A DNA stretch of 64,000 bases, from positions 66,025-130,024 of the forward strand of contig JACPKW010000005.1 in NCBI GenBank assembly GCA_016186825.1. Reading direction: 5' to 3'. The notes under the pieces are model-generated. The model searched no databases and had not been told where the DNA came from. It saw only the letters and a program-made list of their open reading frames with translations. The stretch is from Candidatus Giovannonibacteria bacterium (lineage in GTDB: Bacteria; Patescibacteriota; Minisyncoccia; JACPKW01; UBA11713). Shown here piece by piece: positions 3,219 to 22,745 of this stretch. Every line of letters starts with the position of its first letter. Within the stretch, counting starts at the first letter, position 1. Made by a program: the position numbers and the translations under genes.

Positions 3219-3236
3219 GTTTCTAATTTACAAGTG

Positions 3237-9358: not shown

Positions 9359-9730
9359 TTATTTTTCGTCGTAATCAAAAAAAACGCATTCTATATTATG
9401 CCCGTCGGGATCAAAAACAAACGCGGCATAATATCCCGGCCAATATTCCTTTCGATACCCGGGCGAGCCGTTGTCTTTGGCGCCCGCTTCAAGCGCCGCT
9501 TTGTAAAATGCGGCCACTTCCGCTTTATTTTTCGCTTCGAAGGCGACGTGCGACTTTATGACCCCATTCTTATTTGTTCCAATCCAAAAATCAGTGTTTT
9601 TGCCGTCGTTGAAGCCGGCGGATTCTCCAAACTCCATATTTTGCGTATACCCCAGCGGCTTTAAGGCTTTGATGTAAAATTCTTTCGATCTCTTATAATC
9701 ACTGACTGAAATTGTTGTATGCGCAATCAT
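9359..9730 (-). CDS. Glyoxalase/bleomycin-resistance (VOC) family protein
   Basis: About 123 aa with paired beta-alpha-beta-beta-beta modules; FVFDPDGHNIE C-terminal motif. Confidence 0.75.
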   Translation of the reverse strand: MIAHTTISVSDYKRSKEFYIKALKPLGYTQNMEFGESAGFNDGKNTDFWIGTNKNGVIKSHVAFEAKNKAEVAAFYKAALEAGAKDNGSPGYRKEYWPGYYAAFVFDPDGHNIECVFFDYDEK

Positions 9731-9855
9731 AATTAAATATTAAAACAAAGCTAAATGGCGATTTGTTTTCGATAAATATAGTTTTGCATAAAAATAAGTA
9801 GCCCGCCAGGAGATTCTCCCGACGGGCTCTTACGTTAAGGCCCTGTTGGCACTTG

Positions 9856-10230
9856 TCAAACGCGCCCCTTGGGTTGGCGATCCCGACAAAGTGCTTGCCA
9901 CTGAAACTCGCTTGTAACTTGTTGCCAGAGATGAAAAAAAGTATTCGATTGCCACCACCTTCTTCCATCCTTTGGACATGTATAAAGTATGGTATTGACG
10001 GTGCCTCCTAATGGCACGGCCGGTTTTTGGTCATAACTTCTGCGAAGCGAATTACAATTCTCGCAATCGCTGACACATGGAGCGAGAGTCAATTCCGCTT
10101 CCGCTTCGGAAATCTCAAATGCGTGAGCGTATGTTATGCACCTCTGGCACTTAACCATGAAGCGGCCGTTGATGTCCTTGCCAACGATTTCAGTCAACTT
10201 ATGAGGCCCAATTTGTTTCACTTCACTCAT
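9856..10230 (-). CDS. Hypothetical Cys-rich protein (124 aa)
   Basis: Strong RBS AAGGAG 7 nt upstream of the ATG. Cys pairs CQRC, CVSDCENC suggest a zinc-ribbon-like fold. Confidence 0.5.
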   Translation of the reverse strand: MSEVKQIGPHKLTEIVGKDINGRFMVKCQRCITYAHAFEISEAEAELTLAPCVSDCENCNSLRRSYDQKPAVPLGGTVNTILYTCPKDGRRWWQSNTFFHLWQQVTSEFQWQALCRDRQPKGRV

Positions 10231-10242
10231 GATATGTACTCC

Positions 10243-10449
10243 TTATATTCTCTCCAGCGCCTCTTTTATTTTTATCGCCACATGCGGGCGATGTTTTTCA
10301 TAAAGAGCAAAAATCCCTTCCTTAATATCTTTCCGGCACATCTTCGTAAATTCGTAATATTCTATCTCGGCGCTTTCGTCCGAGAATGCGGGGTTCGTGA
10401 GCTCCATTTCGAAGTAGTTCAGAAACTTTACTTTGGTTAGGTCTTCCAT
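10243..10449 (-). CDS. Hypothetical small acidic protein (68 aa), co-transcribed with 9856..10230
   Basis: RBS AAGGAGG upstream. A 12-nt gap separates it from the downstream gene. Confidence 0.5.
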   Translation of the reverse strand: MEDLTKVKFLNYFEMELTNPAFSDESAEIEYYEFTKMCRKDIKEGIFALYEKHRPHVAIKIKEALERI

Positions 10450-10655
10450 AAAGCCTCCTTGTTAAATTGTCTGCCGGGAACGTTACAAAATTGAAACTAG
10501 CATATGCAAAATACTAAATCAAGAATTCTGACGTTCTATCGGGGTTAAAAAATTTGCATTAAAAAATAGGCGTAAAATAGAAGCTCCGAGCTATGCGAGC
10601 GACAGTTTTTTGATGTTTGTTACATATCCTTTCATATTTATATTTTAAAAGCTAA

Positions 10656-11156
10656 TTAATTTAGTACCCAAATGGAGTAGTTGAGATATGCGGCAAAGCT
10701 GACCCAAAGAATGTACGGAACGAGAAGCCAAGCGGCCGGTTTGGAGATTTTTGCAAAAGCGATGATGGTGGCGAGAATGGCGAGCCAGAGGAAGATGATC
10801 TCGACAAACGCGATGCCAATGTTGTTAAGACCGTTTAAGGTGAGCGAAGTCGAACCGAAAAAAATAATTGACCAGAGCATGTTTAAGACAAGCTGACCGA
10901 GGAATATGCCGAGAGCGATTTTTACATCCCTGCGATCCAGTCCCTTTTTCCAAACAAGGAACGCCGCGATGCCCATAAGCACGAACAGCGTCGTCCAGAC
11001 AGGTCCGAACACCCACGCGGGAGGATTAAGCGCAGGCTTCACGAGCCCGCCATACCAGTTCGGAATTACTGAGACAGTAAAAAACGAACCGATTATACCG
11101 GCCAATTCCGAAACACCAATCGCAATTATTAATTTAAAAAAATTATTAAGCTTCAT
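10656..11156 (-). CDS. tspO: TspO/MBR tryptophan-rich sensory protein
   Basis: Five TM helices. Conserved NPPAWVFGPVWTTLFVLMG and WLLVPYILWVSFAAYLN motifs. Confidence 0.85.
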   Translation of the reverse strand: MKLNNFFKLIIAIGVSELAGIIGSFFTVSVIPNWYGGLVKPALNPPAWVFGPVWTTLFVLMGIAAFLVWKKGLDRRDVKIALGIFLGQLVLNMLWSIIFFGSTSLTLNGLNNIGIAFVEIIFLWLAILATIIAFAKISKPAAWLLVPYILWVSFAAYLNYSIWVLN

Positions 11157-11169
11157 AAATTTGATTTGT

Positions 11170-11211
11170 TACAATATCCTTAAAAACTGGAGTTTTTAAG
11201 GATATTGTAAT
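11170..11211. promoter_or_regulatory. Perfect 19-bp inverted repeat with a 5-nt spacer: TTACAATATCCTTAAAAAC-TGGAG-GTTTTTAAGGATATTGTAA. Candidate operator upstream of tspO.
   Basis: Seen directly in the sequence. It overlaps the 3' end of the ArsR ORF and lies 15-55 bp upstream of the tspO start. A half-site recurs at 11514-11541 and 13079-13105. Confidence 0.5.
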
Positions 11212-11492
11212 GTCTTTTGAAACGACTGCAGAAAGTGGGCAAATGTTTTGCCATATGGTGACAGGGTGTGCTCCACAAATTTACCGCGGTACTTTTTATT
11301 CAGAAGTCCTGCCTGACAAAGTCGGCGTGTGTGTTCGCCAATAGTTTTTTCGTTGGCACCAAGTGCCTCAATAATATCCTCGAGCGTTATCCCGTTACGT
11401 TTCGCAATAAGAAGAAGTATATCAATCCGGTAATGATTGGCCAACCCCTTCAGATGCCGCTCCATTTGTTTCGCCGTCTTTATTTTTACCAT
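11196..11492 (-). CDS. ArsR/SmtB-family winged-helix transcriptional regulator
   Basis: HYRIDILLLIAKRNGITLEDIIEALGANEKTIGEHTRRLCQAGLL HTH segment typical of the ArsR family. About 98 aa. Confidence 0.8.
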   Translation of the reverse strand: MVKIKTAKQMERHLKGLANHYRIDILLLIAKRNGITLEDIIEALGANEKTIGEHTRRLCQAGLLNKKYRGKFVEHTLSPYGKTFAHFLQSFQKTLQYP

Positions 11493-11513
11493 AGTTATAT
11501 TATATACAATACA

Positions 11514-11541
11514 CTTACATTCTCAAGTTTTTAAGGATGTC
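11514..11541. promoter_or_regulatory. Half-site copy of the tspO-upstream palindrome (ACATTCTCAAGTTTTTAAGGATGT), located upstream of the ArsR gene
   Basis: Shares GTTTTTAAGGAT with 11170-11211. Lies 20-50 bp upstream of the ArsR start. Confidence 0.4.
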
Positions 11542-11753
11542 AGTTGGGTTTATTTTCTTCTGCATGAGCCGTGATCTAGATATTGCAACTCTTGTGCTCC
11601 CGACACCACGCTTCGCATTTCTCCGCGCACTTCTTCTTGAAGTAAGTGATTGACCTCGGGCCAGAGCTTTACACCTCCACACCAAAATTTTGGTGTATTG
11701 AGACGAGTTTGACAAGCTGGCGAAGTGTAGCAAAAAACTCCCGTCTTCTAATT

Positions 11754-13019
11754 TTATTTTAAGCAAGACCGATAAAGTTTCAGATGATCCAAAACCAGAC
11801 GCGGGAATAAAAAATTCTCCAAAACGGTTTTTCTCGCAGTTTTACCCATTATTCTTTTCTTTGACGGATGGGATAAAAGAAAAATTATTTTTTGAGCCAT
11901 TTCCTCGGGAGATTTCACAATAAAGCCGTTTTCCCCATTTTGTATCTGTTTTCTGATTCCCGAAGCCGGGCTGCCGATTATCGCCTGGCGTTTCCACATT
12001 GCTTCCGTGACCACCAAGCCAAAACCTTCTTTGACGGAATTTTGAACGATGACATCAGCCGCGTTTTGCGCCATAACGGTAAACTCTAAAACATCTTTTC
12101 CTTTTGGATCAAAAAATAAATAAATATCGCGGGATTTGCCGGCAATAGCAGCAATATCTTTATAAACTACCATTGCTGCTGGATTATCTTTGGCAGTGTT
12201 GAAGCCAACCAAAGCCAGTTGCGCGCCCGGGTAGGTATTTTGAACTATTCGGAAGGCCTGGATAACTCCCATCGGGTTTTTCCAAACATCAAAGCGCGAT
12301 ACCTGCGCAACGAGAGGACAACTTGCTGGAATGCCGCCGTGTTTTTTTAAATACAGACGGGCAACTTTTTGGGAAACAATCTTTTGCTTGGGAGCCAGAG
12401 GATCTATGGCCGGCGTGAAAACTTTTATTTTGCGTCCCGGCAAACTGCCGCTAACAAAATTGCGATTACTGAAAACAATTCGATGATAGGATGCAACGGC
12501 AGGAAGAAGTTTTTTCCAAACCTGTCTAAAAACAGAAGAGGTGTCAATATGACTGAAATATATTTTATGCTTATGAAGACGCGCGAGATGTCCAGCCAAA
12601 AGAAGTTGGGGATCATTTACGGCCAAAACATCACAATCAATTTTATCAAGCTCGGCGGCGATGCGCCCGCTTAACCTTTCATATTCAGTCCATTCCCGAC
12701 CGCTGATTTTTACCGGCGCGCCTTGCAAAGCGTTGTGAATTTTGTTGGTTACCTCAAAAAACTTTTTGCTGACGTCGGGATTGATAAAATACCAGTCGCT
12801 TTCAACACCTAAAGAACGAAAATACAGGACGAGACTTGCAAGTATTTCCGCGACGCCTCCGCCATCCGCTACAGCATTGATATGCACCACTCTTTTCCCC
12901 CGAAGATAAGAGGCCTGCTTCAATAATTCCCCTTTTTGCCCCTCCGGCATAAATCTCAAAAAGTCTGCTCGGCGTACTTGTTTTGAAAGAATGATTTTTC
13001 GGATATTTAAATTTTTCAT
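11754..13019 (-). CDS. treT: GT4-family glycosyltransferase, TreT-like (trehalose glycosyltransferring synthase) by motif
   Basis: N-terminal HINAVADGGGVAEILASLV ... KIHNALQG resembles TreT/trehalose-synthase GT4 enzymes. C-terminal EGFGLVVTEAM GT-B motif. Confidence 0.55.
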   Translation of the reverse strand: MKNLNIRKIILSKQVRRADFLRFMPEGQKGELLKQASYLRGKRVVHINAVADGGGVAEILASLVLYFRSLGVESDWYFINPDVSKKFFEVTNKIHNALQGAPVKISGREWTEYERLSGRIAAELDKIDCDVLAVNDPQLLLAGHLARLHKHKIYFSHIDTSSVFRQVWKKLLPAVASYHRIVFSNRNFVSGSLPGRKIKVFTPAIDPLAPKQKIVSQKVARLYLKKHGGIPASCPLVAQVSRFDVWKNPMGVIQAFRIVQNTYPGAQLALVGFNTAKDNPAAMVVYKDIAAIAGKSRDIYLFFDPKGKDVLEFTVMAQNAADVIVQNSVKEGFGLVVTEAMWKRQAIIGSPASGIRKQIQNGENGFIVKSPEEMAQKIIFLLSHPSKKRIMGKTARKTVLENFLFPRLVLDHLKLYRSCLK

Positions 13020-13078
13020 AACTCCTTATTTTCTTTTTGAATCACTTTGACCATATTTTTGATTGTACACAATACCCC

Positions 13079-13105
13079 AACATTCTCAAGTTTATAAGGA
13101 TGTTA
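13079..13105. promoter_or_regulatory. Third copy of the ArsR-box-like motif (ACATTCTCAAGTTTATAAGGATGT), upstream of the TreT-like gene
   Basis: Lies 60-85 bp upstream of the minus-strand start at 13019. Confidence 0.4.
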
Positions 13106-13283
13106 CGCGCTGGATGCGGACTAACGGACGGATGCTCTAAATTTTCCACCGAAAACCTTTCGGACACTCTAAAATTTTTCCTCTCCGGACTCAAAACCAC
13201 CAAAGGAATTGAAAGAAATCTTTTTGCTAAAAAGTTTCTTTCAAACATTTTCTATTCCCCCGAAAGCATTAAAATCCGCTTCA

Positions 13284-13415
13284 CCCCGTTAGAAAATTCT
13301 TTTCTAACGGGGGTTCATTTCTCGCCAAAGCGTCCCGCCGTGGCGGGACGCGGAGCGAAGCCCAGCCCCGCTTGTAGCGGGGCTGGGCGACCTGCCTGCC
13401 GGCAAGGCAGGGCGA
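13284..13415. repeat. Cluster of four strong GC-rich hairpins, including the CCTGCCTGCCGGCAAGGCAGG member of a dispersed palindromic repeat family
   Basis: Perfect 13-bp hairpin CCCCGTTAGAAAA/TTTTCTAACGGGG. Also CGTCCCGCC-GTG-GCGGGACG, CCCAGCCCCGC-TTGTA-GCGGGGCTGGG and CCTGCCTGCCGGCAAGGCAGG. The last of these recurs at 56900-57030. Confidence 0.55.
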
Positions 13416-13440
13416 ACCCTCTCGTCTTCAAAAAATGAGT

Positions 13441-13660
13441 TCGTATCTAGTTTCTTGGCTCCATACCCTGAACGAAATCCGAACGCATTTTCAGGAAACC
13501 TCCGACGAATGAAGCCGCCCCGCCGCCGCTCGCTAACGCTCGCCAGCCAGCAAAAAAGTTTTCTCTGCATTTCTGATTTTGCGCGCGCCGGATTTCTCCC
13601 CCCAACCCCCTCCTGCCGAGCCGTCCTCACGGTTGGCGGTGGCGTTTATTTCTAAATTAT
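13441..13660. repeat. Left terminal inverted repeat (~200 bp) of the cassette; outer terminus TGGCTCCATACCCTGAACG
   Basis: Its reverse complement matches 19010-19265 almost exactly, apart from an ~85-nt insertion in the right copy. Confidence 0.8.
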
Positions 13661-15147
13661 AAAGTTTTATGAAGTGCCTGCCAAATTGAATACATCGCAT
13701 ACGTATCAAGCCCACAATATATTTTTAGATCGTTTATGGATTTCTCTTTTTGGGCGTCGTTAAAACCGCCACTTACGATTTTATTCCAAGTATCTGCGGC
13801 ACTTCCACCATCTCGTATTTCAAGCTCTTTGTATGATAATTCAGGAACTAAAACAGGCAAAATTCTTTTTATGGAAGTGCCGCCCCTAAAGTCTCGGTGT
13901 ATATGATATTGTTTTCTAAAAATATCTTCCAAGTCATACACGCGTCCTTTCAAGGAATCCATAAACGATTTCATTTCGGGAATTCTAATCGCAATCTCGT
14001 CGTTTCTTCCACACTCAAATCCTTTGTGCCAAACAATAATACTCCCAGTCGTACCCAAATGTTTTTGTAACGATTCAGCAAATGATTTACTCGGATCATC
14101 GGACGCAACGTGTAAAAACTCATAATGTTCCGGTTTGCTTTCCGGCGACTTCAAAACATCAACGGAATATTGGAACGGTATTTGATGGTAGGGGGAAAAC
14201 CCGTCAAATCTTGGAATTGCCGCTGGAAACGTTTCGTAATCTAAAAAATATAAGGGGAATGTTAAAGCATCAAACTCTGCTTTGATTTTTTCTTTTTCAA
14301 CCAAAACTTTATTCAGAATATATGTGTCAACCTGGCCCTGTTGAATATCGGTTAGCTTGATATGGGAAGGAATTTTATCGAGGTGAAAAATATTATTATC
14401 AATCAATTCCTTCAGTTTTGCTTTACTGTTTCCTATGCGCGCTATATCGTGGACGCTATATTCTGGAACTTCTGGATTTGAATGCTGAAAGGTTGAACAA
14501 TGCTTGGAGCGTCCTTTATAAACACAACAGCAATATCCGTTTGGTTTAGTCTCTTGAGAAAGATATTCAAGTGCCCCTTGCGATTCATTGGATACTTCTG
14601 TTGTTAAACTTTCAACTTCGCTAGTGACATCGACAATCTTAAATAAATTTTGAATGTCAAGATCATTCGTTCGCACATATTCCGAATTCAAATGTATTAT
14701 GTATGCCTTGTCGATTTGTAAACCATGCTTTCTTAGTAAGTTAACTTGAAAAGCTAGGTCGTGATAATGAGTTTTGTTATCTACGTCGCTTGTTGATTTT
14801 ATTTCGTATACAAAATAACCACCGCTCTCCGGATTAAACTTCAAAACATCTATTGCCGCCAAAAGATTACCACCAACAAAGACAGGTTGAAACAGGATTT
14901 CTTGATGCTTTGCAATGTAATCCTGCGTAACTTTTTGCCCTTCCTCATCTCGCCGTTCAATTAAAACGCCGCCTGGAAATAATTTCCGCGCTATCAATTC
15001 AACTTCATTACCTGTCTCCATGATGGACTTTTCAAATTCAGATAATTCAGATTCAGAATAAATGTCTGGTCTATGTATTTTATACCAGACATTTTGAGGG
15101 CATTCTCTATAAAGAATATAATCAGTTTTTGTAAGTGTAATAGTCAT
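13657..15147 (-). CDS. DUF2779-family protein: N-terminal Cas4/RecB-like PD-(D/E)xK nuclease with a Cys cluster plus a C-terminal DEDD (RNase H-like) exonuclease-like domain
   Basis: N-terminus TKTDYILYRECPQNVWYK (DUF2779-like). CCCVYKGRSKHCSTF cysteine cluster. YFLDYETFPAAIPRFDGFSPYHQIPFQYS (D-x-E) and YCGLDTYAMY at the C-terminus. Confidence 0.65.
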   Translation of the reverse strand: MTITLTKTDYILYRECPQNVWYKIHRPDIYSESELSEFEKSIMETGNEVELIARKLFPGGVLIERRDEEGQKVTQDYIAKHQEILFQPVFVGGNLLAAIDVLKFNPESGGYFVYEIKSTSDVDNKTHYHDLAFQVNLLRKHGLQIDKAYIIHLNSEYVRTNDLDIQNLFKIVDVTSEVESLTTEVSNESQGALEYLSQETKPNGYCCCVYKGRSKHCSTFQHSNPEVPEYSVHDIARIGNSKAKLKELIDNNIFHLDKIPSHIKLTDIQQGQVDTYILNKVLVEKEKIKAEFDALTFPLYFLDYETFPAAIPRFDGFSPYHQIPFQYSVDVLKSPESKPEHYEFLHVASDDPSKSFAESLQKHLGTTGSIIVWHKGFECGRNDEIAIRIPEMKSFMDSLKGRVYDLEDIFRKQYHIHRDFRGGTSIKRILPVLVPELSYKELEIRDGGSAADTWNKIVSGGFNDAQKEKSINDLKIYCGLDTYAMYSIWQALHKTL

Positions 15148-15148
15148 A

Positions 15149-18100
15149 TTAAGATTGTATCCATCCTTTATCTTCTAGCTTTCCAATGACAATGCGTCCG
15201 ATTGTCGCATTATCTTGAAATGAGTAGATCAATCCAGCATGGCGTGTTTTCAAGCCAATCCATGTTTTTACTTCTAGCGCAACCGCCAAATTTTTACCAT
15301 CAGGTGATAGCTCGGCCGCCTCAACTTTGCATTTTCCACCCTTTAGCGAAGCGGACACATAATCGTTTATCGTCTGCCATAACTCCGGCTTATCAGATTT
15401 TTTCCTTGTTCCATTCAAAAGATTGAATAACAAATCTAGATGAAATGGGGCTTGCGTGGAAATAAATTCTGAATATACAGGTACCCCTGTCAGCTCGCAA
15501 TCTTTTAGATCTTCGGGATGACATTTGCGACCACTCCACGAACAAGACCTTGCTTCCGAAGGAGAACAGAAATTCCCAATAATAGAACGAACGGCTTCAG
15601 TTTCAAGGAGGGGCGCACCAGACAAGTTGCTGAATATAAATTCTTGCTTATGGCCCGTCTTGCCAGAAACAACAGATTTTAGCTGTTCATCGTTTCGATA
15701 TTTTTTCCCCGATATTTGGCTAACTGCCAATTCACTTTCAAGAACTTCTGATTTAGTGAATTCACATATTCCAAAATATTGCGCTTCGGCACGCTTCCCA
15801 CTTAGAACCGATGTCTTTAAAAATTTTTTAGCAACCATCTCTCCGGTTACAGCTGATTTTTCCGCCTCATCAACCAAAACTCGCTTCTGGCTGAATGCAC
15901 AGAGAACAGTGTGCTCTGGATATGCGAACCGACTACTTATCTCCGATTGGACCAGAAAATGTCGAAGTGCAACTTGTTTAGTAATAGCGCATTGACCGAG
16001 ACAGTCGCGGGGTACTACCTTGCCGGATTTCATACATTTATCCATTTCAGGCGATATCACCTTTGTCGAAAAAGGAGTTATGGTCAATAGACTTCTATAT
16101 TCGCCGCCCTCATCAAATTTGTATGACACTCTTGTTTTCAAATCTCTATGAACGGTGCCTTCAAGACCAACCAATGAAATTTCTAATCTGGGAGTAAATT
16201 CGTCTTCAAGTTTTTTCTTTTTGCGTAGATCGTTACCCGCCGAGGCCATTTCCTGCTCTCTCCTCTCGGTATAAAAGCGACAGAAATCCAAAATATTTGG
16301 ATCTTGCATTGCTTTTTCTGCTAACTTTTTAGAAATTGCACCTATTGTCGTGGGGTTTTCTATTTGAGCACCTATCGGCTCAAGTCCAATCTTGGTAACA
16401 AAGTTGAAATGTTCTTCTGGAGAACATTCAACCTCAACCAATCGCTCATAACTATCATGAGCCACGGTTGCACGAACTCTTAACAACGCCTTACCTGCAA
16501 AATGCCTCGATACGTCTTGTATATCAATTTCTCTAAAATCTGCCCCGAAATTTTTGACCCAATCATTTGCAATTTTCTCGGCTCCCATGTGAGGATTTTG
16601 ATCGTTATCGTCCACGAGATGCAATCCGACATTTGTAACCTTACTCACAAGGCGTTCAAATACTGCCGTACCGGGAGCGTACAAAATACTTTCTTCTTTG
16701 CCGCTCAAGGTATTGTTATCAAATCGAATTAACTCTCTTTTTCCACCGAGATGCGACACGACCATATTGCCATCTTCCTTAAGTTTCGCACCAAAATCAG
16801 ATAGAGCAGTTAATACAAAAGTGCGAGCATCTATGGTGTGCTCTGTCTGCGGTAGTTTAGGACAGCGCGGACCAAAATCCTGCATGTCTCCCATACCGCC
16901 GAGAAGTGAATTAATGTTCTTTTCTTCTTTTTCTAGCTCTGATTTTGCGTTTTTTATACTTTCTTCGGCTTGCTTGGTTGCTCGCTCCACGTCCTTACCC
17001 GCTAGCGAAGCAACGACTAATTGTCTTATCTTCTCCTCAAAGCCACTCGATCCATTTTCCTCTCCCTCGTCGATTCCCGACGCTTCAAGCAGAGCCTCAA
17101 TGTCTCCGATTGCATGAGATGCCAACTGCAATTTTTCCATTAATCTGCCAACAATGTACTCCTCAAAAGTATTTTTTAAGACGATGTTAAAAATAGATAC
17201 GTTTTCAAAATTAGAAGACAATCGTTGAATACGACCGATACGTTGTTCAACGATCATCGGATTCCATGGTAAATCATAATTAACTAGAACGTTTGCGGCT
17301 TGTAGATTGATACCCTCTGAACCAGCTTCGGTTGATACAATAACGTGAATTTCGGGTAAATCCTTCTTAAACTTCGCAATAGTTTCTTGGTTCCTAGTAT
17401 TAGAATCACCGTTTATAAGTCCGCAAGAAATTTTTTCTTTTTCAAGAAAACTTTGTATTGCTGTTTGAGTTTCGCGCCATCGAGTGAACACAACTAACCG
17501 CCACGTGTCTGGTTGTTCCACTCTTAGTTTTTCAATCAAAGCACTAAGTCCTTTTAATTTTGTCGTTGTCTTAATGTCTTTCGCAATTTCTTTAACATCC
17601 TTTGCTAAAGATTTTGGCGCGGTATCCTTTTTCGCCATTCCTTCTAGTAGTTTAACTAGCGCCTCGGGGCTACTTACAAGTGCTTGTAAGATTACTATCT
17701 GCGAAAGGTAATTTAGTTCTTGGATTGGTTTCGCAATTACCCTGAAAAGATCTAACTCCTTTTCAGATGGTTCAACTTTATGCATCAGAACTTTTCTTTC
17801 AGGGAAGTGGAGCTTTGCGTCTCCTCTGCGCACACGAGACATATATCCATAGACAATCGAGCGAAATTCATCACGCATTTCCGGTTTAAGTTGGCGTGCA
17901 GTAGTCCGACTATCGGCTATAAATTTTCGAGCGAATGTACCTTGATTGCCAAAGGGATTTTCATGACCTCGTGCAACGGTTAATAAATCCACCAAGGAGT
18001 AAAGATCCCAGAGACGATTTTGTATTGGGGTAGCAGTTAGCATCAGAACATATTTGAATAACCTATCAGAAAGCGCCTTGCGAAATCTTTGTGCAACTTG

Positions 18101-18667
18101 TGGTGTAGGGTCAACGCCGTAAAGATTTCGCAGTTTGTGTGCCTCATCAAGTATCAGCATGTCGAAGCCGTCCTGTTTGATTCTATCGAGATACAATCTA
18201 GCGGTGTTATAAGTTGTTATCACTGCTCCCGTCTCCTCGGGAGGTTCTGCAGTGATAAGTTCTCTGCCGGTAACAATCACTGAAGGGATATCGAATTTAA
18301 CATCCAATTCCTCTTTCCACTGCTCGCGGAGTATTTTCGGGCAGACCACCAATATTTTCGAAATCCTTCCTCGTGAAATGAGTTCACTTACAACCAATCC
18401 GGCACTTATTGTTTTTCCAAGACCAACATCATCTGCCAACAAAGTGACCGGAAGACGACGGCAGAAAGAAATAAGATTTGTAACTTGATGATGGTAGGGC
18501 TCAACACGATCGCGCCATTTACTTTCCGATCGCATATCCTCCCTATCTTCAATAACGATAGGTTCAACCAAGTCCCACTCAAGAGCAGCCCGATACAAAC
18601 CATACTTTTCTGGAGTAGAAGCTCTCTTTAGTGTTCTTGTCTGAAATGGTAGCTGAGATAAATCCAT
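15149..18667 (-). CDS. SNF2/Swi2-family helicase (N-terminal ~530 aa) fused to an uncharacterised ~640-aa Cys-containing C-terminal region
   Basis: Motif I LADDVGLGKTI, motif II LILDEAHKLRN, motif III LTATPIQN, motif VI QRIGRIQR. The C-terminal half has no recognisable motifs. Confidence 0.85.
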   Translation of the reverse strand: MDLSQLPFQTRTLKRASTPEKYGLYRAALEWDLVEPIVIEDREDMRSESKWRDRVEPYHHQVTNLISFCRRLPVTLLADDVGLGKTISAGLVVSELISRGRISKILVVCPKILREQWKEELDVKFDIPSVIVTGRELITAEPPEETGAVITTYNTARLYLDRIKQDGFDMLILDEAHKLRNLYGVDPTPQVAQRFRKALSDRLFKYVLMLTATPIQNRLWDLYSLVDLLTVARGHENPFGNQGTFARKFIADSRTTARQLKPEMRDEFRSIVYGYMSRVRRGDAKLHFPERKVLMHKVEPSEKELDLFRVIAKPIQELNYLSQIVILQALVSSPEALVKLLEGMAKKDTAPKSLAKDVKEIAKDIKTTTKLKGLSALIEKLRVEQPDTWRLVVFTRWRETQTAIQSFLEKEKISCGLINGDSNTRNQETIAKFKKDLPEIHVIVSTEAGSEGINLQAANVLVNYDLPWNPMIVEQRIGRIQRLSSNFENVSIFNIVLKNTFEEYIVGRLMEKLQLASHAIGDIEALLEASGIDEGEENGSSGFEEKIRQLVVASLAGKDVERATKQAEESIKNAKSELEKEEKNINSLLGGMGDMQDFGPRCPKLPQTEHTIDARTFVLTALSDFGAKLKEDGNMVVSHLGGKRELIRFDNNTLSGKEESILYAPGTAVFERLVSKVTNVGLHLVDDNDQNPHMGAEKIANDWVKNFGADFREIDIQDVSRHFAGKALLRVRATVAHDSYERLVEVECSPEEHFNFVTKIGLEPIGAQIENPTTIGAISKKLAEKAMQDPNILDFCRFYTERREQEMASAGNDLRKKKKLEDEFTPRLEISLVGLEGTVHRDLKTRVSYKFDEGGEYRSLLTITPFSTKVISPEMDKCMKSGKVVPRDCLGQCAITKQVALRHFLVQSEISSRFAYPEHTVLCAFSQKRVLVDEAEKSAVTGEMVAKKFLKTSVLSGKRAEAQYFGICEFTKSEVLESELAVSQISGKKYRNDEQLKSVVSGKTGHKQEFIFSNLSGAPLLETEAVRSIIGNFCSPSEARSCSWSGRKCHPEDLKDCELTGVPVYSEFISTQAPFHLDLLFNLLNGTRKKSDKPELWQTINDYVSASLKGGKCKVEAAELSPDGKNLAVALEVKTWIGLKTRHAGLIYSFQDNATIGRIVIGKLEDKGWIQS

Positions 18668-18672
18668 AGTTA

Positions 18673-18873
18673 TTACAGCAATTCACTCGGTTTGACCCCA
18701 AGTGCTTTGGCCAATTTTTCAATATTTTTTAAAGCCATATTTCTGACCCCGCGCTCAATGCCGGAAATATAGGTTGGATGCACACCTAAAATCTTCGCGA
18801 GGTCTCCTTGCGACATCTTCTTCTGTAGACGCAACTCTTTTACTTTTTTGCCAAACTTAACGGAAATATCCAT
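18673..18873 (-). CDS. XRE-family (Cro/CI-type) HTH transcriptional regulator, first gene of the operon
   Basis: LRLQKKMSQGDLAKILGVHPTYISGIERG is a canonical XRE HTH. 66 aa. Its stop lies 6 bp from the SNF2 start. Confidence 0.85.
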   Translation of the reverse strand: MDISVKFGKKVKELRLQKKMSQGDLAKILGVHPTYISGIERGVRNMALKNIEKLAKALGVKPSELL

Positions 18874-18906
18874 AGTTTTTCCACTTTATCACATATTGCA
18901 ATATTT

Positions 18907-18932
18907 TTCTATATAGAATAATATTTCTATAT
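18907..18932. promoter_or_regulatory. Candidate operator/promoter of the XRE-SNF2-DUF2779 operon
   Basis: Perfect 12-bp palindrome TTCTATATAGAA followed by a direct repeat ATTTCTATAT, 35-60 bp upstream of the XRE start. Confidence 0.35.
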
Positions 18933-19009
18933 GAGTATCAATGGGAGTTCCAAAAACTTGTCCGCGCACTGGGAGGGTGGGGCAAGGACAAGAAAAGAAA
19001 TAAACGCCA

Positions 19010-19265
19010 CCGCCAACCGTGAGGACGGCTCGGCAGGAGGGGGTTGGGGGGAGGAATGCCGAGCCGTCCGAGCGAATAGAAAAGAGGCCAGCCCCGCCGC
19101 CTGCTCTGTTAGGAGCAGAAGCCAGCCAAAAAGTTTCGCAAAATCAGAAATGCAGAGAAAACTTTTTTGCTGGCTGGCGAGCGTTAGCGAGCGGCGGCGG
19201 GGCGGCTTCATTCGTCGGAGGTTTCCTGAAAATGCGTTCGGATTTCGTTCAGGGTATGGAGCCAA
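19010..19265. repeat. Right terminal inverted repeat of the cassette (copy of 13441-13660 with an ~85-nt insertion)
   Basis: Reverse-complement identity to the left TIR over about 200 nt. Ends in GGAGCCA. Confidence 0.8.
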
Positions 19266-19332
19266 ATTGTATGATACGAGTTCACCGCCTCGGGGCTTCG
19301 CCCCTCGGCGGGCACATCAGCAAGAATTTTCC
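19258..19332. repeat. 75-bp inverted repeat, left copy (GGAGCCAAATTGTATGATACGAG...CAGCAAGAATTTT), flanking the recombinase gene
   Basis: Identical in reverse complement to 20878-20952. Confidence 0.85.
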
Positions 19333-19479
19333 ACGACTTTTTGGGTTCAAAGCAAATCGCTTGCGAGCGCAAAACGTGGTTCGCCGCGCAAAGCGCGGAG
19401 TAAATGGAAATTTACAGCCAATTCTTTTTCTTCCGCCTTCGGCGGAAAGCAAAGCGATAATTTTTAGCCCAAAAGCGAT

Positions 19480-21000
19480 ATGAAATACTTTTTATACATC
19501 AGAAAATCAACGGACGAGGACGACAGACAAGTTTTGTCGCTGGAAGCGCAGGAAACGGAATTGAAAGAATTTGCCTTGCGGGAAAATCTTTTGATCGCCG
19601 CGACTTTCCGCGAATCGCAGACCGCCAAAGAGCCGGGCAGACCGATTTTTAACGATATGCTCAAACGAATGGAGCGCGGCGAGGCCGAGGGGATTTTAGC
19701 GTGGCATCCAGACCGATTGGCGAGAAACAGCATAGACGGCGGACGGATTATTTTCTTGGTAGACACTGAAAAAATCAGATCGCTAAAATCCCCGACATTT
19801 TGGTTTGAGCCGACCCCGCAAGGCAAATTCATGCTCAATATCGCTTTTGGGCAATCCAAATACTTTGTGGATAATCTTTCAGTGAATACCAAAAGAGGGT
19901 TGCGTCAAAAATTGCGCCGAGGCGAATTGCCCGGCTATGCGCCGCTTGGCTATTTGAACGACTTGCTAAAACACACAATCTACAAAGACCCCGAACGTTT
20001 TCGCCTCGTCCGCAAACTTTTTGAACTTTACGCAACCGGAAATTATTCTCTGAAAGATTTGCGGAAGTTGATAACTTCCGCCGGCTTGTTGAGCCGCAAA
20101 GGAAATATGCTTTCCGTCTCCAATATCCAAAATATACTCTCTACTTCATTTTATTATGGCGTATTCAAATACAATGGCGAACTCTACGACGGAAAGCATG
20201 AGCCAATGATTGCAAAGAAACTTTTTGAAGCGTGCCAAAAAGTGATGGCGGATCGTTCGCGCCCGAAAAAGCCGAGCCAAAAGGAATATCCGTTTAGAAA
20301 CTTGCTCAAGTGCGGCGAGTGCGGGTGCGCTATCACTTCCGAAACGCAAAAAGGACATAACTACTACCGCTGTACCAAAAAGAAAGACAAGCAATGTTCG
20401 CAAAAATATATCCGCGAGGAAGTTTTGGCACGCCAGATTTCGGACGAGATTCAAAAAGTTTCTTTGCCTCCCGCTTGGGCGGAGTGGATGTTAGCAGAAC
20501 TCAACAAGGAAGAAGCAGAAGCCGCCCAAGCGGGCGCCGTTTTCGCTCAAAATCTCAAAAACAAAATAAAAGAGCTTGAAGGAAAGCTCGACCTGCTTTT
20601 AGATGCACATTTAGCCAGCACTATTTCGCGCGAGGAATACACCGCCAAAAAAGAGAAATTGATAATTGAAAAGGCCGAGCTTTCCGAAAAATTGAAGGAT
20701 TTTGAGCGAAACGGCAATCATTGGCTCGAACCGGCCCGGCAATTCATTTTAGCGGCTCAACAAGCCAAAATTATCGCTTTGCAAGAAAATCCCGTCACGG
20801 GACGGGATTTTCTAAAAAGAATTGGCTCGAACCACGTTTTGCGCTCGCAAGCGATTTGCTTTGAACCCAAAAAGTCGTGGAAAATTCTTGCTGATGTGCC
20901 CGCCGAGGGGCGAAGCCCCGAGGCGGTGAACTCGTATCATACAATTTGGCTCCCCGGGCAGGATTCGAACCTGCGACCCACTCCTTACACTTATCCCTAA
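19480..21000 (+). CDS. Large serine recombinase (resolvase/invertase catalytic domain, recombinase domain, zinc ribbon and coiled-coil). The last ~40 codons read through the right IR and the tRNA 3' exon.
   Basis: YIRKSTDEDDRQ catalytic Ser motif. CGECGCAITSETQKGHNYYRC zinc ribbon. The ORF end overlaps 20878-20952 and tRNA 20947-20987. Confidence 0.85.
   Translation: MKYFLYIRKSTDEDDRQVLSLEAQETELKEFALRENLLIAATFRESQTAKEPGRPIFNDMLKRMERGEAEGILAWHPDRLARNSIDGGRIIFLVDTEKIRSLKSPTFWFEPTPQGKFMLNIAFGQSKYFVDNLSVNTKRGLRQKLRRGELPGYAPLGYLNDLLKHTIYKDPERFRLVRKLFELYATGNYSLKDLRKLITSAGLLSRKGNMLSVSNIQNILSTSFYYGVFKYNGELYDGKHEPMIAKKLFEACQKVMADRSRPKKPSQKEYPFRNLLKCGECGCAITSETQKGHNYYRCTKKKDKQCSQKYIREEVLARQISDEIQKVSLPPAWAEWMLAELNKEEAEAAQAGAVFAQNLKNKIKELEGKLDLLLDAHLASTISREEYTAKKEKLIIEKAELSEKLKDFERNGNHWLEPARQFILAAQQAKIIALQENPVTGRDFLKRIGSNHVLRSQAICFEPKKSWKILADVPAEGRSPEAVNSYHTIWLPGQDSNLRPTPYTYP
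20878..20952. repeat. 75-bp inverted repeat, right copy. It overlaps the 3' end of the intron-containing tRNA.
   Basis: Reverse complement of 19258-19332. Confidence 0.85.
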
Positions 21001-21271
21001 GTTTCCTTGGGGGGTGGACTATATCATCATCCCTGTTTTTGGATGCGAGGCGCTTCGACCGTCGCTTGTGACGGGCTACTCTCTTTCGAGATAGTCTCTG
21101 AACCTTCCTTCATCTTGCTTCGCAATCCGAAGCTTTAGCGAAAGATTGGCTGCGGATTACCTTAGAAAAATTCTTTAGGCTTCCCGCAATTCACCTCGTT
21201 TTTCAACCGGAATTACTTCCGGAAGCTGCCATTTTTGACAGGGAGTCGCTCTACCGCTGAGCTACCGGGGA
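20947..21271 (-). tRNA. tRNA, best read as Asn(GUU), interrupted by a ~250-nt group I-like intron in the anticodon loop. Exons 21238-21271 and 20947-20987; intron 20988-21237; CCA encoded. Asp(GUC) is the alternative if the boundaries are shifted.
   Basis: 5' exon TCCCCGGTAGCTCAGCGGTAGAGCGACTCCCTGT. 3' exon TAAGGAGTGGGTCGCAGGTTCGAATCCTGCCCGGGGAGCCA, giving a perfect cloverleaf. The intron follows a U and ends in G, and contains P7-like CAGAGACTA ... ATATAGTCC elements. Confidence 0.65.
20988..21237 (-). other. Putative group I self-splicing intron within the tRNA anticodon loop (no ORF)
   Basis: Lies between anticodon positions 35 and 36. Contains GACUA/UAGUC P7-like motifs. Boundaries are a 5' U and a terminal G. 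Confidence 0.5.
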
Positions 21272-21389
21272 ATATCTGCTGATATTATAACTTTCTGATT
21301 CCGTTTTCAACATTTCAGCTCAAAATTGCTCTGAAATTTGCTTTCATATAGAATAAAAAGATAAAAAATTAGCTCTGTTAAACGCATAT

Positions 21390-22745
21390 ATGAAAGTCCT
21401 ACTTCTTAATATTGAAGCTCGGTCCGATAAAAAATGTATAAATAAAGACCTCGCAGGCGGAATGGGGACGGGAACATGGATTGGAAATTCGCTTCGAGCG
21501 CGCATTTTTGAGAAAACAAAAAAATCTAATGTCGTTTTGCCTGTAATAACTTCGCCTTATCTCGCGGCAATTTTTAAGAAAGGAGGCTGGGAAGTTAAAG
21601 TTCTTCATATCGGCAAGGGCACTGACGTGCCCGACAAAAAGGCGGATTTGGCGCTCGTACCGACTTCGATCGTTGACTGCACTCACGAAAAAGAAATCGC
21701 TCGAATATTGAAAGACCGCGGAATTTGCACGGGCGTATACGGAACATTCGCAACGACCGTCCCCGAATTTTTCAAAAACGATTCAAATTTTGTCATGCAG
21801 GGAGAGCCTGAAGCAGTCGCGATGCAAATTATCGCGAGCGGGAAACTTCCGGAAGGAAACATCTTTGCTCCTCCAGTTGAAAATCCGGATGTTCTCCCCT
21901 TTCCGGACTGGGACCAATTTCCAGTCGAAAAATATTCATATTCGCCTGCACTGAACAAGCGTCCCGTCCTTACGATGCTCGCCTCGCGGGGATGCCCCTA
22001 CAGCTGCTTTTTTTATTGCCCTTACCCGATCAACGCTGGAAGAAAATGGCGCATGCGTTCCGTTGGGAACGTTATTGATGAGATGGTTTATTTAAAAGAG
22101 AGGTACGGCATTAAGGCCGTCGATTTTCGAGACGCAAATTTTTCAGTCGACATGAAAAGGGCGGCAGAATTTTCCGAGAGGCTGCGCGAAAAAAATCTCG
22201 GGGTGATTTGGTCCGCTGAAACACGGATTGATCGCCTGGACAAGCCGCTGATCGATAAAATGTATGAAGCGGGACTCCGTCACTTTAACTTCGGAATTGA
22301 GTCTTCAGATGTGGGAGTTTTGAAAAGCTCCAATCGCATGCCTGTAGAATATCGGCACCAGGAAGATATCCTAGCTTACTGCAGAAAAAAAGGGATTACT
22401 GTCGCGGCTTTTTATATTCTTGGGCTTGAAAGTGACACTGTTGAAAGCTTCAAAGAAACAGTAAGCTATGCGAAAAAACTTAATACGCTTGTTGCGCAGT
22501 TTTCGATCTCAACGCCTTATCCCGGAACACAGTTTTACCAAAAAATGAAGGAAGAAAACCGGATCATTTCTAAAAACTGGGAAGATTACGATGAATACAC
22601 TCCGACATTCAAGCACGCGCATCTATCAGCAGACGAATTATTAAGCTTGAAGGAATACGCCTTTACGTCATACTATTTCCGCCCGGGATATCTTTTAAAG
22701 TACATGCCTAAGTATTTTTTTGAAAAATATTTGTGGCGATTTTGA
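21390..22745 (+). CDS. B12-binding-domain/radical SAM domain protein
   Basis: N-terminal B12-binding-like region, then LASRGCPYSCFFYCPYP Cys cluster. About 450 aa, typical of class B radical SAM enzymes. Confidence 0.65.
   Translation: MKVLLLNIEARSDKKCINKDLAGGMGTGTWIGNSLRARIFEKTKKSNVVLPVITSPYLAAIFKKGGWEVKVLHIGKGTDVPDKKADLALVPTSIVDCTHEKEIARILKDRGICTGVYGTFATTVPEFFKNDSNFVMQGEPEAVAMQIIASGKLPEGNIFAPPVENPDVLPFPDWDQFPVEKYSYSPALNKRPVLTMLASRGCPYSCFFYCPYPINAGRKWRMRSVGNVIDEMVYLKERYGIKAVDFRDANFSVDMKRAAEFSERLREKNLGVIWSAETRIDRLDKPLIDKMYEAGLRHFNFGIESSDVGVLKSSNRMPVEYRHQEDILAYCRKKGITVAAFYILGLESDTVESFKETVSYAKKLNTLVAQFSISTPYPGTQFYQKMKEENRIISKNWEDYDEYTPTFKHAHLSADELLSLKEYAFTSYYFRPGYLLKYMPKYFFEKYLWRF

What the first reader, a model, noticed from the sequence alone, without database searches (positions are those of the whole stretch)
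13441..19265. TIR-bounded cassette with an XRE regulator, an SNF2 helicase carrying a 640-aa unknown C-terminal region, and a DUF2779 nuclease: candidate undescribed defence or DNA-surveillance system
Three tightly coupled minus-strand genes sit between ~200-bp terminal inverted repeats whose tips read TGGCTCC...GGAGCCA. The XRE-to-SNF2 gap is 6 bp and the SNF2 stop overlaps the DUF2779 start. The island lies next to a serine recombinase and an intron-containing tRNA. An ATP-dependent SNF2 translocase paired with a predicted dual nuclease (Cas4/RecB-like PD-(D/E)xK with an Fe-S-like Cys cluster plus a DEDD exonuclease-like domain) under a Cro-like repressor is the usual architecture of phage-defence modules such as DISARM-like or helicase-nuclease systems. 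I do not recognise this exact gene pair as a named system. The cassette also contains no transposase, which suggests mobile cargo.
Basis: partly seen in the sequence, partly recalled or inferred. Interest (0 to 1): 0.9.

Follow-up and report, generated by a model that had tools for sequence, protein, structure and literature searches.

The report
Helicase–nuclease cargo on tRNA-integrated element
A 7.5-kb mobile element, inserted by a serine recombinase into a tRNA gene of a Candidatus Giovannonibacteria genome, carries a regulator, an SNF2 motor protein with a large unknown tail and a two-headed nuclease; the motor–nuclease pair recurs across many bacterial phyla and matches no named system, so it is a credible but untested new DNA-degrading (probably defence) module.

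Summary
Three tightly packed minus-strand genes (XRE, 1172-aa SNF2, 496-aa DUF2779) lie between real inverted repeats: 129 nt are perfect, and a further ~58 nt follow a 71-nt indel.

The "TIR tips" are not transposon ends. TTGGCTCC is the 3' end (plus CCA) of the adjacent intron-containing tRNA, and it serves as the crossover core of a large serine recombinase. A second perfect 126-nt inverted repeat brackets the recombinase gene and shares that core. The unit is therefore a 7.5-kb integrative element (13455-20953) with an internal, inverted attP-like copy.

The gene pair is the real finding:
- The SNF2 tail defines a family of at least 600 clusters at 50% identity.
- Its confident model has no solved structural relative.
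- In 19 of 28 independent, well-flanked loci the helicase sits next to a Cas4/RecB-like + RNase-H-like exonuclease fusion, of either DUF2779 or TM0106 type.
- No third partner is conserved.
- No PADLOC, NCBIfam or literature name fits.

DUF2779 also pairs with other helicases, and occurs alone in defence islands and once in a housekeeping context. Defence is the likeliest function (about 0.5). An MrfAB/AddAB-like repair role is the main rival. Nothing has been tested experimentally.

The parts
13455..13462 (.). Core TTGGCTCC, site S1 (attL-like: chromosomal flank X + element arm P')
   Evidence: Flank X shares TCGTATC with the recombinase-side arm at the same distance from the core.
13455..13656 (.). 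Left inverted-repeat arm of the cassette (core + P' arm + inner block)
   Evidence: I1 129 nt at 100%; I3 69 nt at 94%.
13657..15147 (-). Dual nuclease, 496 aa: N-terminal Cas4/RecB-like PD-(D/E)xK domain with conserved Cys, C-terminal DUF2779 DEDDy 3'-5' exonuclease-like domain
   Evidence: Pfam DUF2779 1e-37 and Cas_Cas4. Invariant C16, D100, E115, K117, C206, C208, C217, D303, E305, D405, Y477, D481. AF2 pLDDT 85.5. Foldseek hits to Cas4 7mi4/4r5q, MGME1, Dna2, AdnAB, the DinG exonuclease domain and Maelstrom.
15149..18667 (-). SNF2-family ATPase, 1172 aa: helicase core about residues 56-530 (GLGKT, DEAH) and a conserved C-terminal region about residues 533-1172
   Evidence: Pfam SNF2-rel_dom and Helicase_C. 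The C-terminal region has no Pfam or PDB sequence hit. AF2 pLDDT 88. No fold match. Family of 603 representatives.
18673..18873 (-). XRE/Cro-type HTH regulator, 66 aa, most like restriction-modification controller (C) proteins
   Evidence: HTH_3 2.5e-18; PADLOC Control_protein 1.4e-23 over the full length.
18892..18933 (.). AT-rich palindrome just upstream of the XRE start, a candidate operator/promoter
   Evidence: I8, 24-nt arms, 88% complementary. Its function is inferred.
18996..19265 (.). Right inverted-repeat arm of the cassette, with a 71-nt insertion (about 19063-19133) that the left arm lacks
19137..19383 (.). Internal attP-like site S2 in inverted orientation (rc P' arm - GGAGCCAA at 19258-19265 - Q arm)
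19480..21000 (+). Large serine recombinase. The ORF runs through the right Q arm and the core into the tRNA.
   Evidence: Resolvase, Recombinase and Zn_ribbon_recom. Distant CcrB/XisF-like hits. The C-terminal motif encoded by the Q arm aligns with the L096 homologue.
20828..20953 (.). Right arm of the second inverted repeat (rc Q + core TTGGCTCC at 20946-20953), site S3 (attR-like)
20947..21271 (-). Target tRNA gene with a ~250-nt group I intron in the anticodon loop. Its 3' end GGAGCCA lies in the core.
   Evidence: Rfam RF00028, 89.3 bits. ARAGORN with introns calls tRNA-Thr(TGT) i(33,250); an Asn(GTT) splice variant also folds.

Best explanation
Window 13455-20953 is one integrative element. 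A large serine recombinase inserted it into the 3' end of an intron-containing tRNA gene of a Candidatus Giovannonibacteria genome.

Its cargo is a three-gene operon:
- a C-protein-like XRE repressor that probably gates expression;
- an SNF2-family dsDNA translocase, whose ~640-aa C-terminal region is a conserved, structurally unprecedented module (alpha/beta domains plus an array of 15-residue beta-hairpin knuckles);
- a nuclease with two active sites, a Cas4/RecB-type PD-(D/E)xK domain and a DEDDy 3'-5' exonuclease domain.

The helicase and the nuclease form a conserved two-gene module that moves horizontally.

Most likely mechanism (inferred): the SNF2 motor loads on and tracks along target DNA, with its tail acting as the recognition or coupling domain. 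It then hands DNA ends or unwound strands to the nuclease, which degrades both polarities. This resembles RecBCD/AddAB-type helicase-nuclease machines and is used here against invading DNA.

The 'terminal inverted repeats' are duplicated arms of the recombinase attachment site. The element holds attL, an internal inverted attP-like copy and attR. The cassette and the recombinase gene are therefore each bracketed by inverted crossover sites and could flip.
For: Shown:
- Gene content and domains.
- Nuclease catalytic residues are invariant in 35 homologues, and the fold matches Cas4, MGME1, Dna2 and AdnAB plus DEDD exonucleases.
- The C-terminal-region family has 603 representatives at 50% clustering, with lengths 1230-2100 aa.
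- Of 80 metagenome loci that encode the helicase, 37 have an adjacent DUF2779-type or TM0106-type (TIGR03491) dual nuclease. That is 19 of the 28 independent loci with at least 1.8 kb on both flanks.
- No other neighbour family recurs in more than 3 independent loci.
- The whole cassette is 85-87% identical between Giovannonibacteria and a Uhrbacteria contig, which indicates horizontal spread.

Context is accessory or mobile:
- AbiEi/AbiEii and Bro-N lie beside the cassette in L013.
- A tyrosine integrase and Wadjet lie beside the helicase in L002.
- Serine or tyrosine recombinases lie near six further loci.
- DUF2779 homologues sit beside Qat + dGTPase, WYL + PLD + helicase, GmrSD, type I/III R-M and STAND genes.
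- The helicase tail found no relative in IMG/VR, and neither protein found one in 50,697 phage genomes.

Attachment-site reading:
- The core equals the tRNA 3' end.
- A TCGTATC motif is shared at equal distance in flank X and the rc-Q arm.
- The homologous recombinase in L014 also reads into a tRNA gene.
Against: - No phenotype, biochemistry or interaction data exist.
- A census of 150 neighbouring ORFs shows heterogeneous, partly housekeeping surroundings and no clear enrichment of known defence genes.
- About one third of well-flanked helicase loci lack the nuclease.
- DUF2779 is promiscuous. At 84% identity it follows an SF1 helicase-REase fusion (L012). At 69% it follows a methylase + PF18766 helicase + AAA_21 operon (L014). 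At 59% it lies between dsbA-like and rpoD/dnaG/rpoBC genes (L097).
- A DUF2779 member is quasi-essential in a minimal Mycoplasma (PMC13621843), which fits a DNA-maintenance role.
- The Fe-S cluster is inferred only from conserved Cys, in a low-confidence loop.
- Inversion of the segments was not observed.
Confidence: 0.5

Rival explanations
1. The SNF2-tail helicase and the dual nuclease are a DNA repair or recombination module. It would be a helicase plus exonuclease pair in the manner of B. subtilis MrfA/MrfB, or an AddAB/AdnAB-like end processor. It would be carried as useful cargo and would not be aimed at foreign DNA.
For: - The C-terminal domain of DUF2779 proteins is closest to the MrfB DEDDh exonuclease, and a family member is quasi-essential in JCVI-syn3.0 (PMC13621843).
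- The N-terminal domain matches the nuclease domains of AdnAB, Dna2 and MGME1.
- A 59%-identical DUF2779 gene lies among rpoD, dnaG, rpoB/C and hisS.
- The split helicase gene in L003 lies among housekeeping genes.
- Neighbour census: no dominant defence signal, with several housekeeping families.
- TM0106-type nucleases are also fused to SF1 helicases.
Against: - The helicase family is rare and patchy: 603 clusters among 1.84 billion representatives.
- It is 43-54% identical across unrelated phyla and 85-87% identical between CPR lineages. That is the pattern of a horizontally moving accessory gene, not a core repair factor.
- Here it sits on an integrase element under a controller-protein-like repressor.
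- Many DUF2779 contexts are classical defence islands.
Confidence: 0.3
2. The two genes are functionally independent. DUF2779 is a stand-alone defence-island or cargo nuclease that tends to lie at the 3' edge of whatever operon is nearby, and the SNF2-tail protein works alone.
For: - The helicase occurs alone in about one third of well-flanked loci and in L001-L003.
- DUF2779 occurs beside many unrelated partners or alone.
Against: - Adjacency holds in 19 of 28 independent loci with two different nuclease subfamilies (DUF2779 and TM0106). The arrangement may be co-directional, convergent or upstream, often with gaps of 30 nt or less. This is far beyond chance for rare families.
- A 1-nt spacer separates the genes here.
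Confidence: 0.12
3. The cassette is a non-autonomous TIR transposon, or the inverted-repeat layout is an assembly artefact.
For: - Long perfect terminal inverted repeats and no transposase inside the cassette.
- Arm lengths of 126-129 nt are near common assembler k-mer sizes.
- Related cassettes in L010, L011, L013 and L016 lack such repeats.
Against: - The repeat tips are the tRNA 3' end and are shared with the repeats around the recombinase gene.
- No further copies of the arms exist in the window.
- The arms differ by a 71-nt indel and a diverged stretch before identity resumes. A graph mis-traversal cannot create that.
- Unitig assemblies of several runs end in the inner repeat at both cassette ends.
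- The left Q copy is followed by unique sequence leading to the recombinase start.
Confidence: 0.08

Closest known systems
DISARM DrmD, BREX BrxHI, Hma HmaA and Dpd DpdE (SNF2-type defence helicases)
   Same: The SNF2 ATPase core is shared. The best PADLOC and NCBIfam hits are to these families, over residues ~56-590.
   Different: Scores are far below the family cut-offs (209 bits against 610 for DrmD). The C-terminal 640 aa is not matched. None of the obligatory partners is present (DrmA/B/C, methylases, PglZ, BrxC, Dpd genes).
B. subtilis MrfA/MrfB (helicase + DEDDh exonuclease repair pair)
   Same: A two-gene helicase + RNase-H-like exonuclease unit. The exonuclease domain of DUF2779 proteins is most similar to MrfB according to PMC13621843. 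The alternative partners found here are of the PF13482 type.
   Different: From my own knowledge, MrfA is a DExH/DUF1998 helicase, not SNF2. MrfB lacks the Cas4-like domain. The module here is patchy and mobile.
AddAB / AdnAB / RecBCD and Dna2 helicase-nucleases
   Same: A motor plus a RecB-family PD-(D/E)xK nuclease, with Cys residues placed as in iron-sulfur nuclease domains. Foldseek matches to AdnAB and Dna2.
   Different: The motor is an SNF2 dsDNA translocase, not an SF1 helicase. The nuclease is a separate protein with an added DEDDy domain.
Cas4 (CRISPR adaptation nuclease) and solo-Cas4 / ACE1
   Same: The N-terminal domain fold and the D...ExK motif.
   Different: Pfam Cas_Cas4 scores 20.7 bits, below the 22.7 cut-off. 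No cas genes or CRISPR array lie nearby. The domain is fused to an exonuclease.
TM0106 family RecB-like putative nuclease (TIGR03491; COG2251/PF13482)
   Same: The same two-domain architecture. It takes the place of DUF2779 next to the SNF2-tail helicase in 13 independent locus clusters. Majorek et al. 2014 place both families in the exonuclease clade with DUF83.
   Different: Only remote sequence similarity (cross-HMM E about 1e-6). The window protein belongs to the DUF2779 branch.
tRNA-targeting large serine recombinase elements (CcrAB/XisF/phage-integrase type) and multiple-inversion systems (Gin/Min-type)
   Same: A recombinase with Resolvase + Recombinase + Zn-ribbon domains, insertion at a tRNA 3' end, and a short common core. 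The alternating orientation of the three cores mirrors multi-site inversion regions.
   Different: An internal inverted attP-like copy with 118-121-nt perfect arms. I know of no other serine-integrase element described with this layout. Classical invertases are small serine recombinases with ~26-bp sites.

Membership tests
DISARM (DrmD as SNF2 component) | SNF2 helicase reaches the DrmD family threshold | tested here: not met
   NF038317 scores 208.9 bits against a cut-off of 610, and only the helicase core aligns. PADLOC DrmD hits cover residues 56-583 only.
DISARM (DrmD as SNF2 component) | Presence of DrmA, DrmB (DUF1998) and DrmC or a methylase in the locus | tested here: not met
   The element holds only XRE, SNF2, DUF2779 and the recombinase. 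The flanks are a glycosyltransferase and a tRNA.
Hma / BREX / Dpd / Zorya (other SNF2-containing systems) | Partner genes (methylase + ATPase; PglZ/BrxC/PglX; Dpd cluster; ZorABC) | tested here: not met
   None is encoded in 13000-21400.
Cas4 / RecB-family PD-(D/E)xK nuclease | D...E-x-K catalytic motif and the Cas4-like fold | tested here: met
   D100, E115 and K117 are invariant in 35 homologues. Foldseek 7mi4 E 1.9e-4 and 4r5q E 4e-4, both probability 1.0.
Cas4 / RecB-family PD-(D/E)xK nuclease | Four Cys that bind an Fe-S cluster | tested here: inconclusive
   C16, C206, C208 and C217 are invariant, but the spacing CxCx8C differs from the usual Cas4 pattern. The loop has pLDDT 51-68. Metal binding is not testable here.
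CRISPR-associated Cas4 | Association with cas1/cas2 or a CRISPR array; Pfam gathering score | tested here: not met
   Cas_Cas4 scores 20.7 bits, below the 22.7 cut-off. No cas genes are in the window region.
DEDD(y) 3'-5' exonuclease (RNase H-like, DUF2779) | Four acidic residues plus Y/H-x4-D, and an RNase H-like fold | tested here: met
   D303, E305, D405, Y477 and D481 are invariant. PF11074 1.1e-37. Fold matches to the DinG exonuclease domain, Maelstrom and 3'hExo. Classified as such by Majorek 2014.
SNF2 family ATPase | SNF2-related N lobe with Walker A/B (DEAH) and a Helicase_C lobe | tested here: met
   PF00176 5.9e-29 and PF00271 4.8e-20. GLGKT and DEAH are seen in the translation. The profile matches INO80/RapA C lobes.
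Large serine recombinase integrative element | Resolvase catalytic domain + Recombinase domain + zinc ribbon | tested here: met
   PF00239, PF07508 and PF13408.
Large serine recombinase integrative element | Element bounded by hybrid sites that share a short core with the target (here a tRNA 3' end) | tested here: met
   TTGGCTCC is at 13455-13462 and 20946-20953, the latter inside the tRNA 3' end. The L014 homologue also abuts a tRNA.
Large serine recombinase integrative element | Empty attB and circular attP junctions exist; the recombinase acts on the sites | not testable with these tools
Contigs of the neighbouring gene end before the junction. The recombinase product is not on record. The attP and arm patterns are absent from IMG/VR.
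TIR transposon / MITE-like non-autonomous element | Terminal inverted repeats with target-site duplication, and multiple copies or a cognate transposase | tested here: not met
   The arms occur only at the three att-type junctions. No transposase is present. The repeat tip is the tRNA end. Related cassettes lack the repeats.
R-M controller (C) protein-regulated operon | Small HTH protein of the C-protein family upstream of the controlled genes, with a palindromic operator | tested here: inconclusive
   PADLOC Control_protein 1.4e-23. A palindrome lies at 18892-18933. Binding and regulation were not tested, and the regulator is not conserved in related cassettes.

The most novel reading that the evidence does not exclude
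The SNF2 helicase, with its structurally unprecedented C-terminal sensor region, and a Cas4/RecB + DEDDy dual nuclease (of DUF2779 or TM0106 type) together form a widespread, so far unnamed two-gene anti-mobile-element defence system. In this genome it rides on a serine-integrase element whose duplicated, inverted attP lets both the cargo and the recombinase gene flip.
Probability: 0.35. Interest if true: 0.75.

Novelty: new variant of a known kind. Interest (0 to 1): 0.6.

Why it matters
If the pair is a defence system, it adds a new helicase-nuclease family. The family is present in CPR bacteria, Proteobacteria, Acidobacteria, Nitrospirae and others, and it has a recognition domain with no structural precedent. 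That would be a useful entry point for working out how SNF2 motors select foreign DNA.

It would also give a first functional setting to DUF2779 and TM0106. These are large, uncharacterised nuclease families, one member of which is quasi-essential in the minimal Mycoplasma cell.

If the pair is instead a repair module, it would be a new MrfAB-like pathway.

The element's layout (attL, inverted attP, attR) would be a new way for a serine integrase to arrange its cargo.

Tried and rejected
- attP-junction and P'-arm patterns found nothing in IMG/VR.
- Look-up of the recombinase product: not on record.
- Contigs of the neighbouring glycosyltransferase end ~130-160 nt upstream of the gene, before the junction, so no empty site could be seen.
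- PDB sequence searches with single proteins and with profiles gave nothing for the C-terminal region or for DUF2779; only SNF2 C lobes were hit.
- Literature searches for DUF2779, TM0106/TIGR03491, PF13482/COG2251 and SNF2 + Cas4/RecB + defence found no paper that links the pair.
- Rfam HepC_CRE hits at 13276-13495 are far below the gathering score and reflect GC-rich hairpins.
- I considered that the repeats were an assembler artefact. I rejected this because of the 71-nt indel and the diverged block between identical segments, and because of the independent unitig breaks.
- I considered a third conserved component, such as a methylase or regulator. I rejected it because no neighbour family recurs in more than 3 independent loci.
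- The promoter/terminator scan gave counts near the shuffled expectation.

Full report
**What is in the sequence.** Between 13455 and 19265 lie three minus-strand genes: a 66-aa XRE/HTH protein (18673-18873), a 1172-aa SNF2-family ATPase (15149-18667) and a 496-aa DUF2779 protein (13657-15147). The spacing is tight.

The flanking inverted repeats are real. Coordinates 13455-13583 and 19137-19265 are 129 nt long and 100% complementary, and an inner block follows. A pairwise alignment shows 132 identical nt, then a 71-nt insertion present only in the right arm, then about 12 diverged nt, then ~58 identical nt. Each arm occurs exactly twice in the window, against 0 expected by chance. An exact DUF2779 protein match names the organism as Candidatus Giovannonibacteria, on a contig of 138,753 nt.

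**What the repeats are.** The tip TTGGCTCC is not a transposon end. A second perfect 126-nt inverted repeat (19258-19383 against 20828-20953) brackets the adjacent large serine recombinase gene (19480-21000; Resolvase + Recombinase + Zn ribbon). The same 8-nt core ends both repeat pairs.
- Site S1 is TTGGCTCC at 13455-13462.
- Site S2 is GGAGCCAA at 19258-19265.
- Site S3 is TTGGCTCC at 20946-20953.

S3 lies in the 3' end (GGAG + CCA) of a minus-strand tRNA at 20947-21271. That tRNA carries a ~250-nt group I intron (Rfam RF00028, 89 bits).

Read as half-sites, S1 is chromosomal flank X + arm P'. S3 is arm rc-Q + tRNA. S2 is P' + Q in reverse orientation, which is an inverted attP-like copy. 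Flank X and rc-Q share TCGTATC at the same distance from the core, as attB and attP half-sites of a serine integrase often do.

The right Q arm encodes a recombinase C-terminal motif (NHVLRSQAICFEPKKSWKILA) that aligns with the L096 homologue. The right copy is therefore genuine coding sequence, and the left copy is an inverted duplicate. A related recombinase in L014 likewise reads into a tRNA-His gene.

The unit is therefore a 7.5-kb integrative element (13455-20953) and the recombinase is part of it. The layout attL - cassette - inverted attP - recombinase - attR means that the cassette and the recombinase gene are each flanked by inverted crossover sites. Formally, both are invertible. A circle excised through S1 x S3 would carry two opposed attP sites.

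Whether flipping happens is not shown. The layout cannot be an assembler artefact, for three reasons:
- The arms differ internally.
- The left Q copy leads into unique sequence before the recombinase start.
- Unitig assemblies from several runs end in the inner repeat at both cassette ends.

Related cassettes elsewhere lack these repeats, so the repeats belong to this element and not to the gene module.

**The proteins.**

*XRE.* It matches restriction-modification controller proteins best (PADLOC Control_protein 1.4e-23). A palindrome at 18892-18933 lies just upstream.

*SNF2.* It has GLGKT and DEAH motifs and both helicase lobes. Its defence-database hits (DrmD, BrxHI, HmaA, DpdE, ZorD) cover only residues ~56-590 and fall far below family cut-offs.

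Residues ~533-1172 have no Pfam or PDB sequence match. With 54 homologues, AlphaFold gives a confident model (pLDDT 88). It shows a long helix, alpha/beta domains with long hairpins, about a dozen 15-residue beta-hairpin "knuckle" repeats with a C/S-x2-S/T-G motif, and a terminal beta domain.

*DUF2779.* It has invariant D100/E115/K117 and C16/C206/C208/C217 in the N-terminal half, and D303-x-E305, D405 and Y477-x3-D481 in the C-terminal half. Its model (pLDDT 85.5) matches Cas4, MGME1, Dna2 and AdnAB at the N terminus and DEDD exonucleases at the C terminus. This agrees with Majorek et al. 2014 (PMC3985635) and with a 2026 analysis of the quasi-essential Mycoplasma member (PMC13621843).

**Is the pair a unit?** The cassette recurs at high identity on other contigs: L010, a Candidatus Uhrbacteria contig (L011) and JGI metagenome contigs (L013, L016). 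There the SNF2 protein is 87% identical, its C-terminal region 78-81%, and DUF2779 80-86%. That shows horizontal spread, but it is one cassette.

The stronger test used 80 metagenome loci that encode the helicase tail at 41-81% identity. HMM searches of all their ORFs found an adjacent two-domain nuclease in 37 of them. The nuclease is either DUF2779-type (20-86% identical to ours by tblastn) or a PDDEXK/Cas4 + RNase_H_2 protein of the TM0106 family (TIGR03491). It lies downstream on the same strand, convergent, or upstream.

After collapsing near-identical loci and requiring at least 1.8 kb on both sides, 19 of 28 independent loci are positive (my count from the per-locus table). Among 468 neighbouring ORFs, no other family recurs in more than three independent loci. 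The recurrent ones include serine recombinases and tyrosine integrases.

The conserved unit is therefore the helicase with or without the dual nuclease. The two nuclease branches are interchangeable, and XRE is a local addition: it has no homologue in the Uhrbacteria-type cassette.

The relation is not exclusive. About a third of well-flanked helicase loci lack the nuclease. DUF2779 at 84% identity follows an SF1 helicase-REase fusion (L012). At 69% it closes a methylase + PF18766 helicase + AAA_21 operon in another serine-recombinase island (L014). At 59% it sits between housekeeping genes (L097).

**Function.** Several observations favour a conflict or defence role.
- The helicase family is rare and patchy, and it crosses phyla.
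- Here it sits on an integrase element under a controller-like repressor.
- AbiE and Bro-N lie beside the cassette in L013, and an integrase plus Wadjet lie beside the helicase in L002.
- Annotated DUF2779 neighbourhoods are classical defence islands: Qat + dGTPase on an Aliarcobacter plasmid; WYL + PLD + helicase + macro domain in Rhodoferax; GmrSD; type I and III R-M; STAND.
- The helicase tail found no relative in IMG/VR, in 72,556 plasmids or in 50,697 phage genomes. DUF2779 is absent from the phage genomes.

Against this, a census of 150 neighbours is heterogeneous and has no dominant defence signal. The closest characterised analogues of the nuclease (MrfB, AddB/AdnB, Dna2, MGME1) are repair enzymes.

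I therefore put a helicase-nuclease DNA-degrading defence module at about 0.5, an MrfAB/AddAB-like repair module at about 0.3, and independent genes or other roles at the remainder.

The proposed mechanism is inference: SNF2 translocation, the tail as recognition or coupling domain, and two-polarity degradation by the nuclease.

**Known or new.** No PADLOC v2.0 or NCBIfam 20.0 (June 2026) model names the helicase or the pair. The searchable literature does not link SNF2 with DUF2779 or TM0106. DefenseFinder could not be run.

The module belongs to a familiar class, helicase + nuclease. It has an unprecedented accessory domain and an unnamed, conserved pairing, so I rate it a new variant of a known kind. 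The attachment-site layout with an inverted internal attP is, to my knowledge, unusual and remains unexplained.

Noticed in passing
window 20947-21271 (minus strand): tRNA gene interrupted by a ~250-nt group I intron in the anticodon loop (RF00028, 89 bits). Default ARAGORN misses it. With introns allowed it is called Thr(TGT), but an Asn(GTT) splice variant also folds.
   Followed up: partly
window 19258-19383 and 20828-20953: A second perfect 126-nt inverted repeat brackets the serine recombinase gene. The left copy is an inverted duplicate of the recombinase 3' coding end plus the att arm, so the ORF keeps its C-terminus in either orientation.
   Followed up: partly
window 13300-13420: Three consecutive GC-rich perfect hairpins lie in the chromosomal flank just outside the element. 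They produce spurious sub-threshold Rfam HepC_CRE hits. Logan contigs of the neighbouring glycosyltransferase gene stop shortly before this stretch, which may mean it is repeated elsewhere in the genome.
   Followed up: no
window 13684-13656 (minus strand): A strong sigma-70-like promoter match (TTGGCA-17-TATAAT, 11 of 12) lies at the very end of the DUF2779 gene. It points out of the cassette through the left repeat towards the glycosyltransferase gene. If the cassette flipped, it would face the recombinase gene.
   Followed up: no
window 13441-13454 and 20932-20945: Chromosomal flank X and the recombinase-side arm share TCGTATC at the same distance (-14 to -8) from the core. This is a candidate integrase half-site motif.
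   Followed up: partly
L014 3094-17334 (GCA_009712145.1): Another CPR serine-recombinase island abuts a tRNA-His gene. It carries XRE + N6_N4 methylase + PF18766 SWI2/SNF2 helicase + AAA_21 ATPase (Hma-like), followed by a 69%-identical DUF2779 gene and a second methylase.
   Followed up: partly
L097 10001-11509 (GCA_964349945.1): A 59%-identical DUF2779 gene lies in a purely housekeeping neighbourhood (hisS, an RNase_H_2 protein, bacA, a dsbA-like gene, then rpoD, dnaG, rpoC, rpoB). It is a core-genome version of the same nuclease.
   Followed up: no
L034 2154-5738; L072 2760-6152; L075 2762-6154: Beside the SNF2-tail helicase, the TM0106-type nuclease is fused to an SF1 (IGHMBP2/Mokosh MkoA-like) helicase, giving 1131-1195-aa proteins. 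These loci therefore hold two different motors.
   Followed up: no
proteins P0248, P0252, P0259, P0265: Homologues of the helicase reach 1900-2100 aa and match the tail in 7-9 separate stretches. The beta-hairpin knuckle array therefore varies widely in copy number. The CPR version lacks about four repeats that are present in the proteobacterial homologue compared (P0051).
   Followed up: partly
L112 (Aliarcobacter cryaerophilus plasmid pACRY43158, record 1191-16713): On an annotated plasmid, a DUF2779 gene sits directly after a Qat anti-phage operon (QatC, TatD hydrolase) and before an AAA protein and a dGTPase.
   Followed up: no
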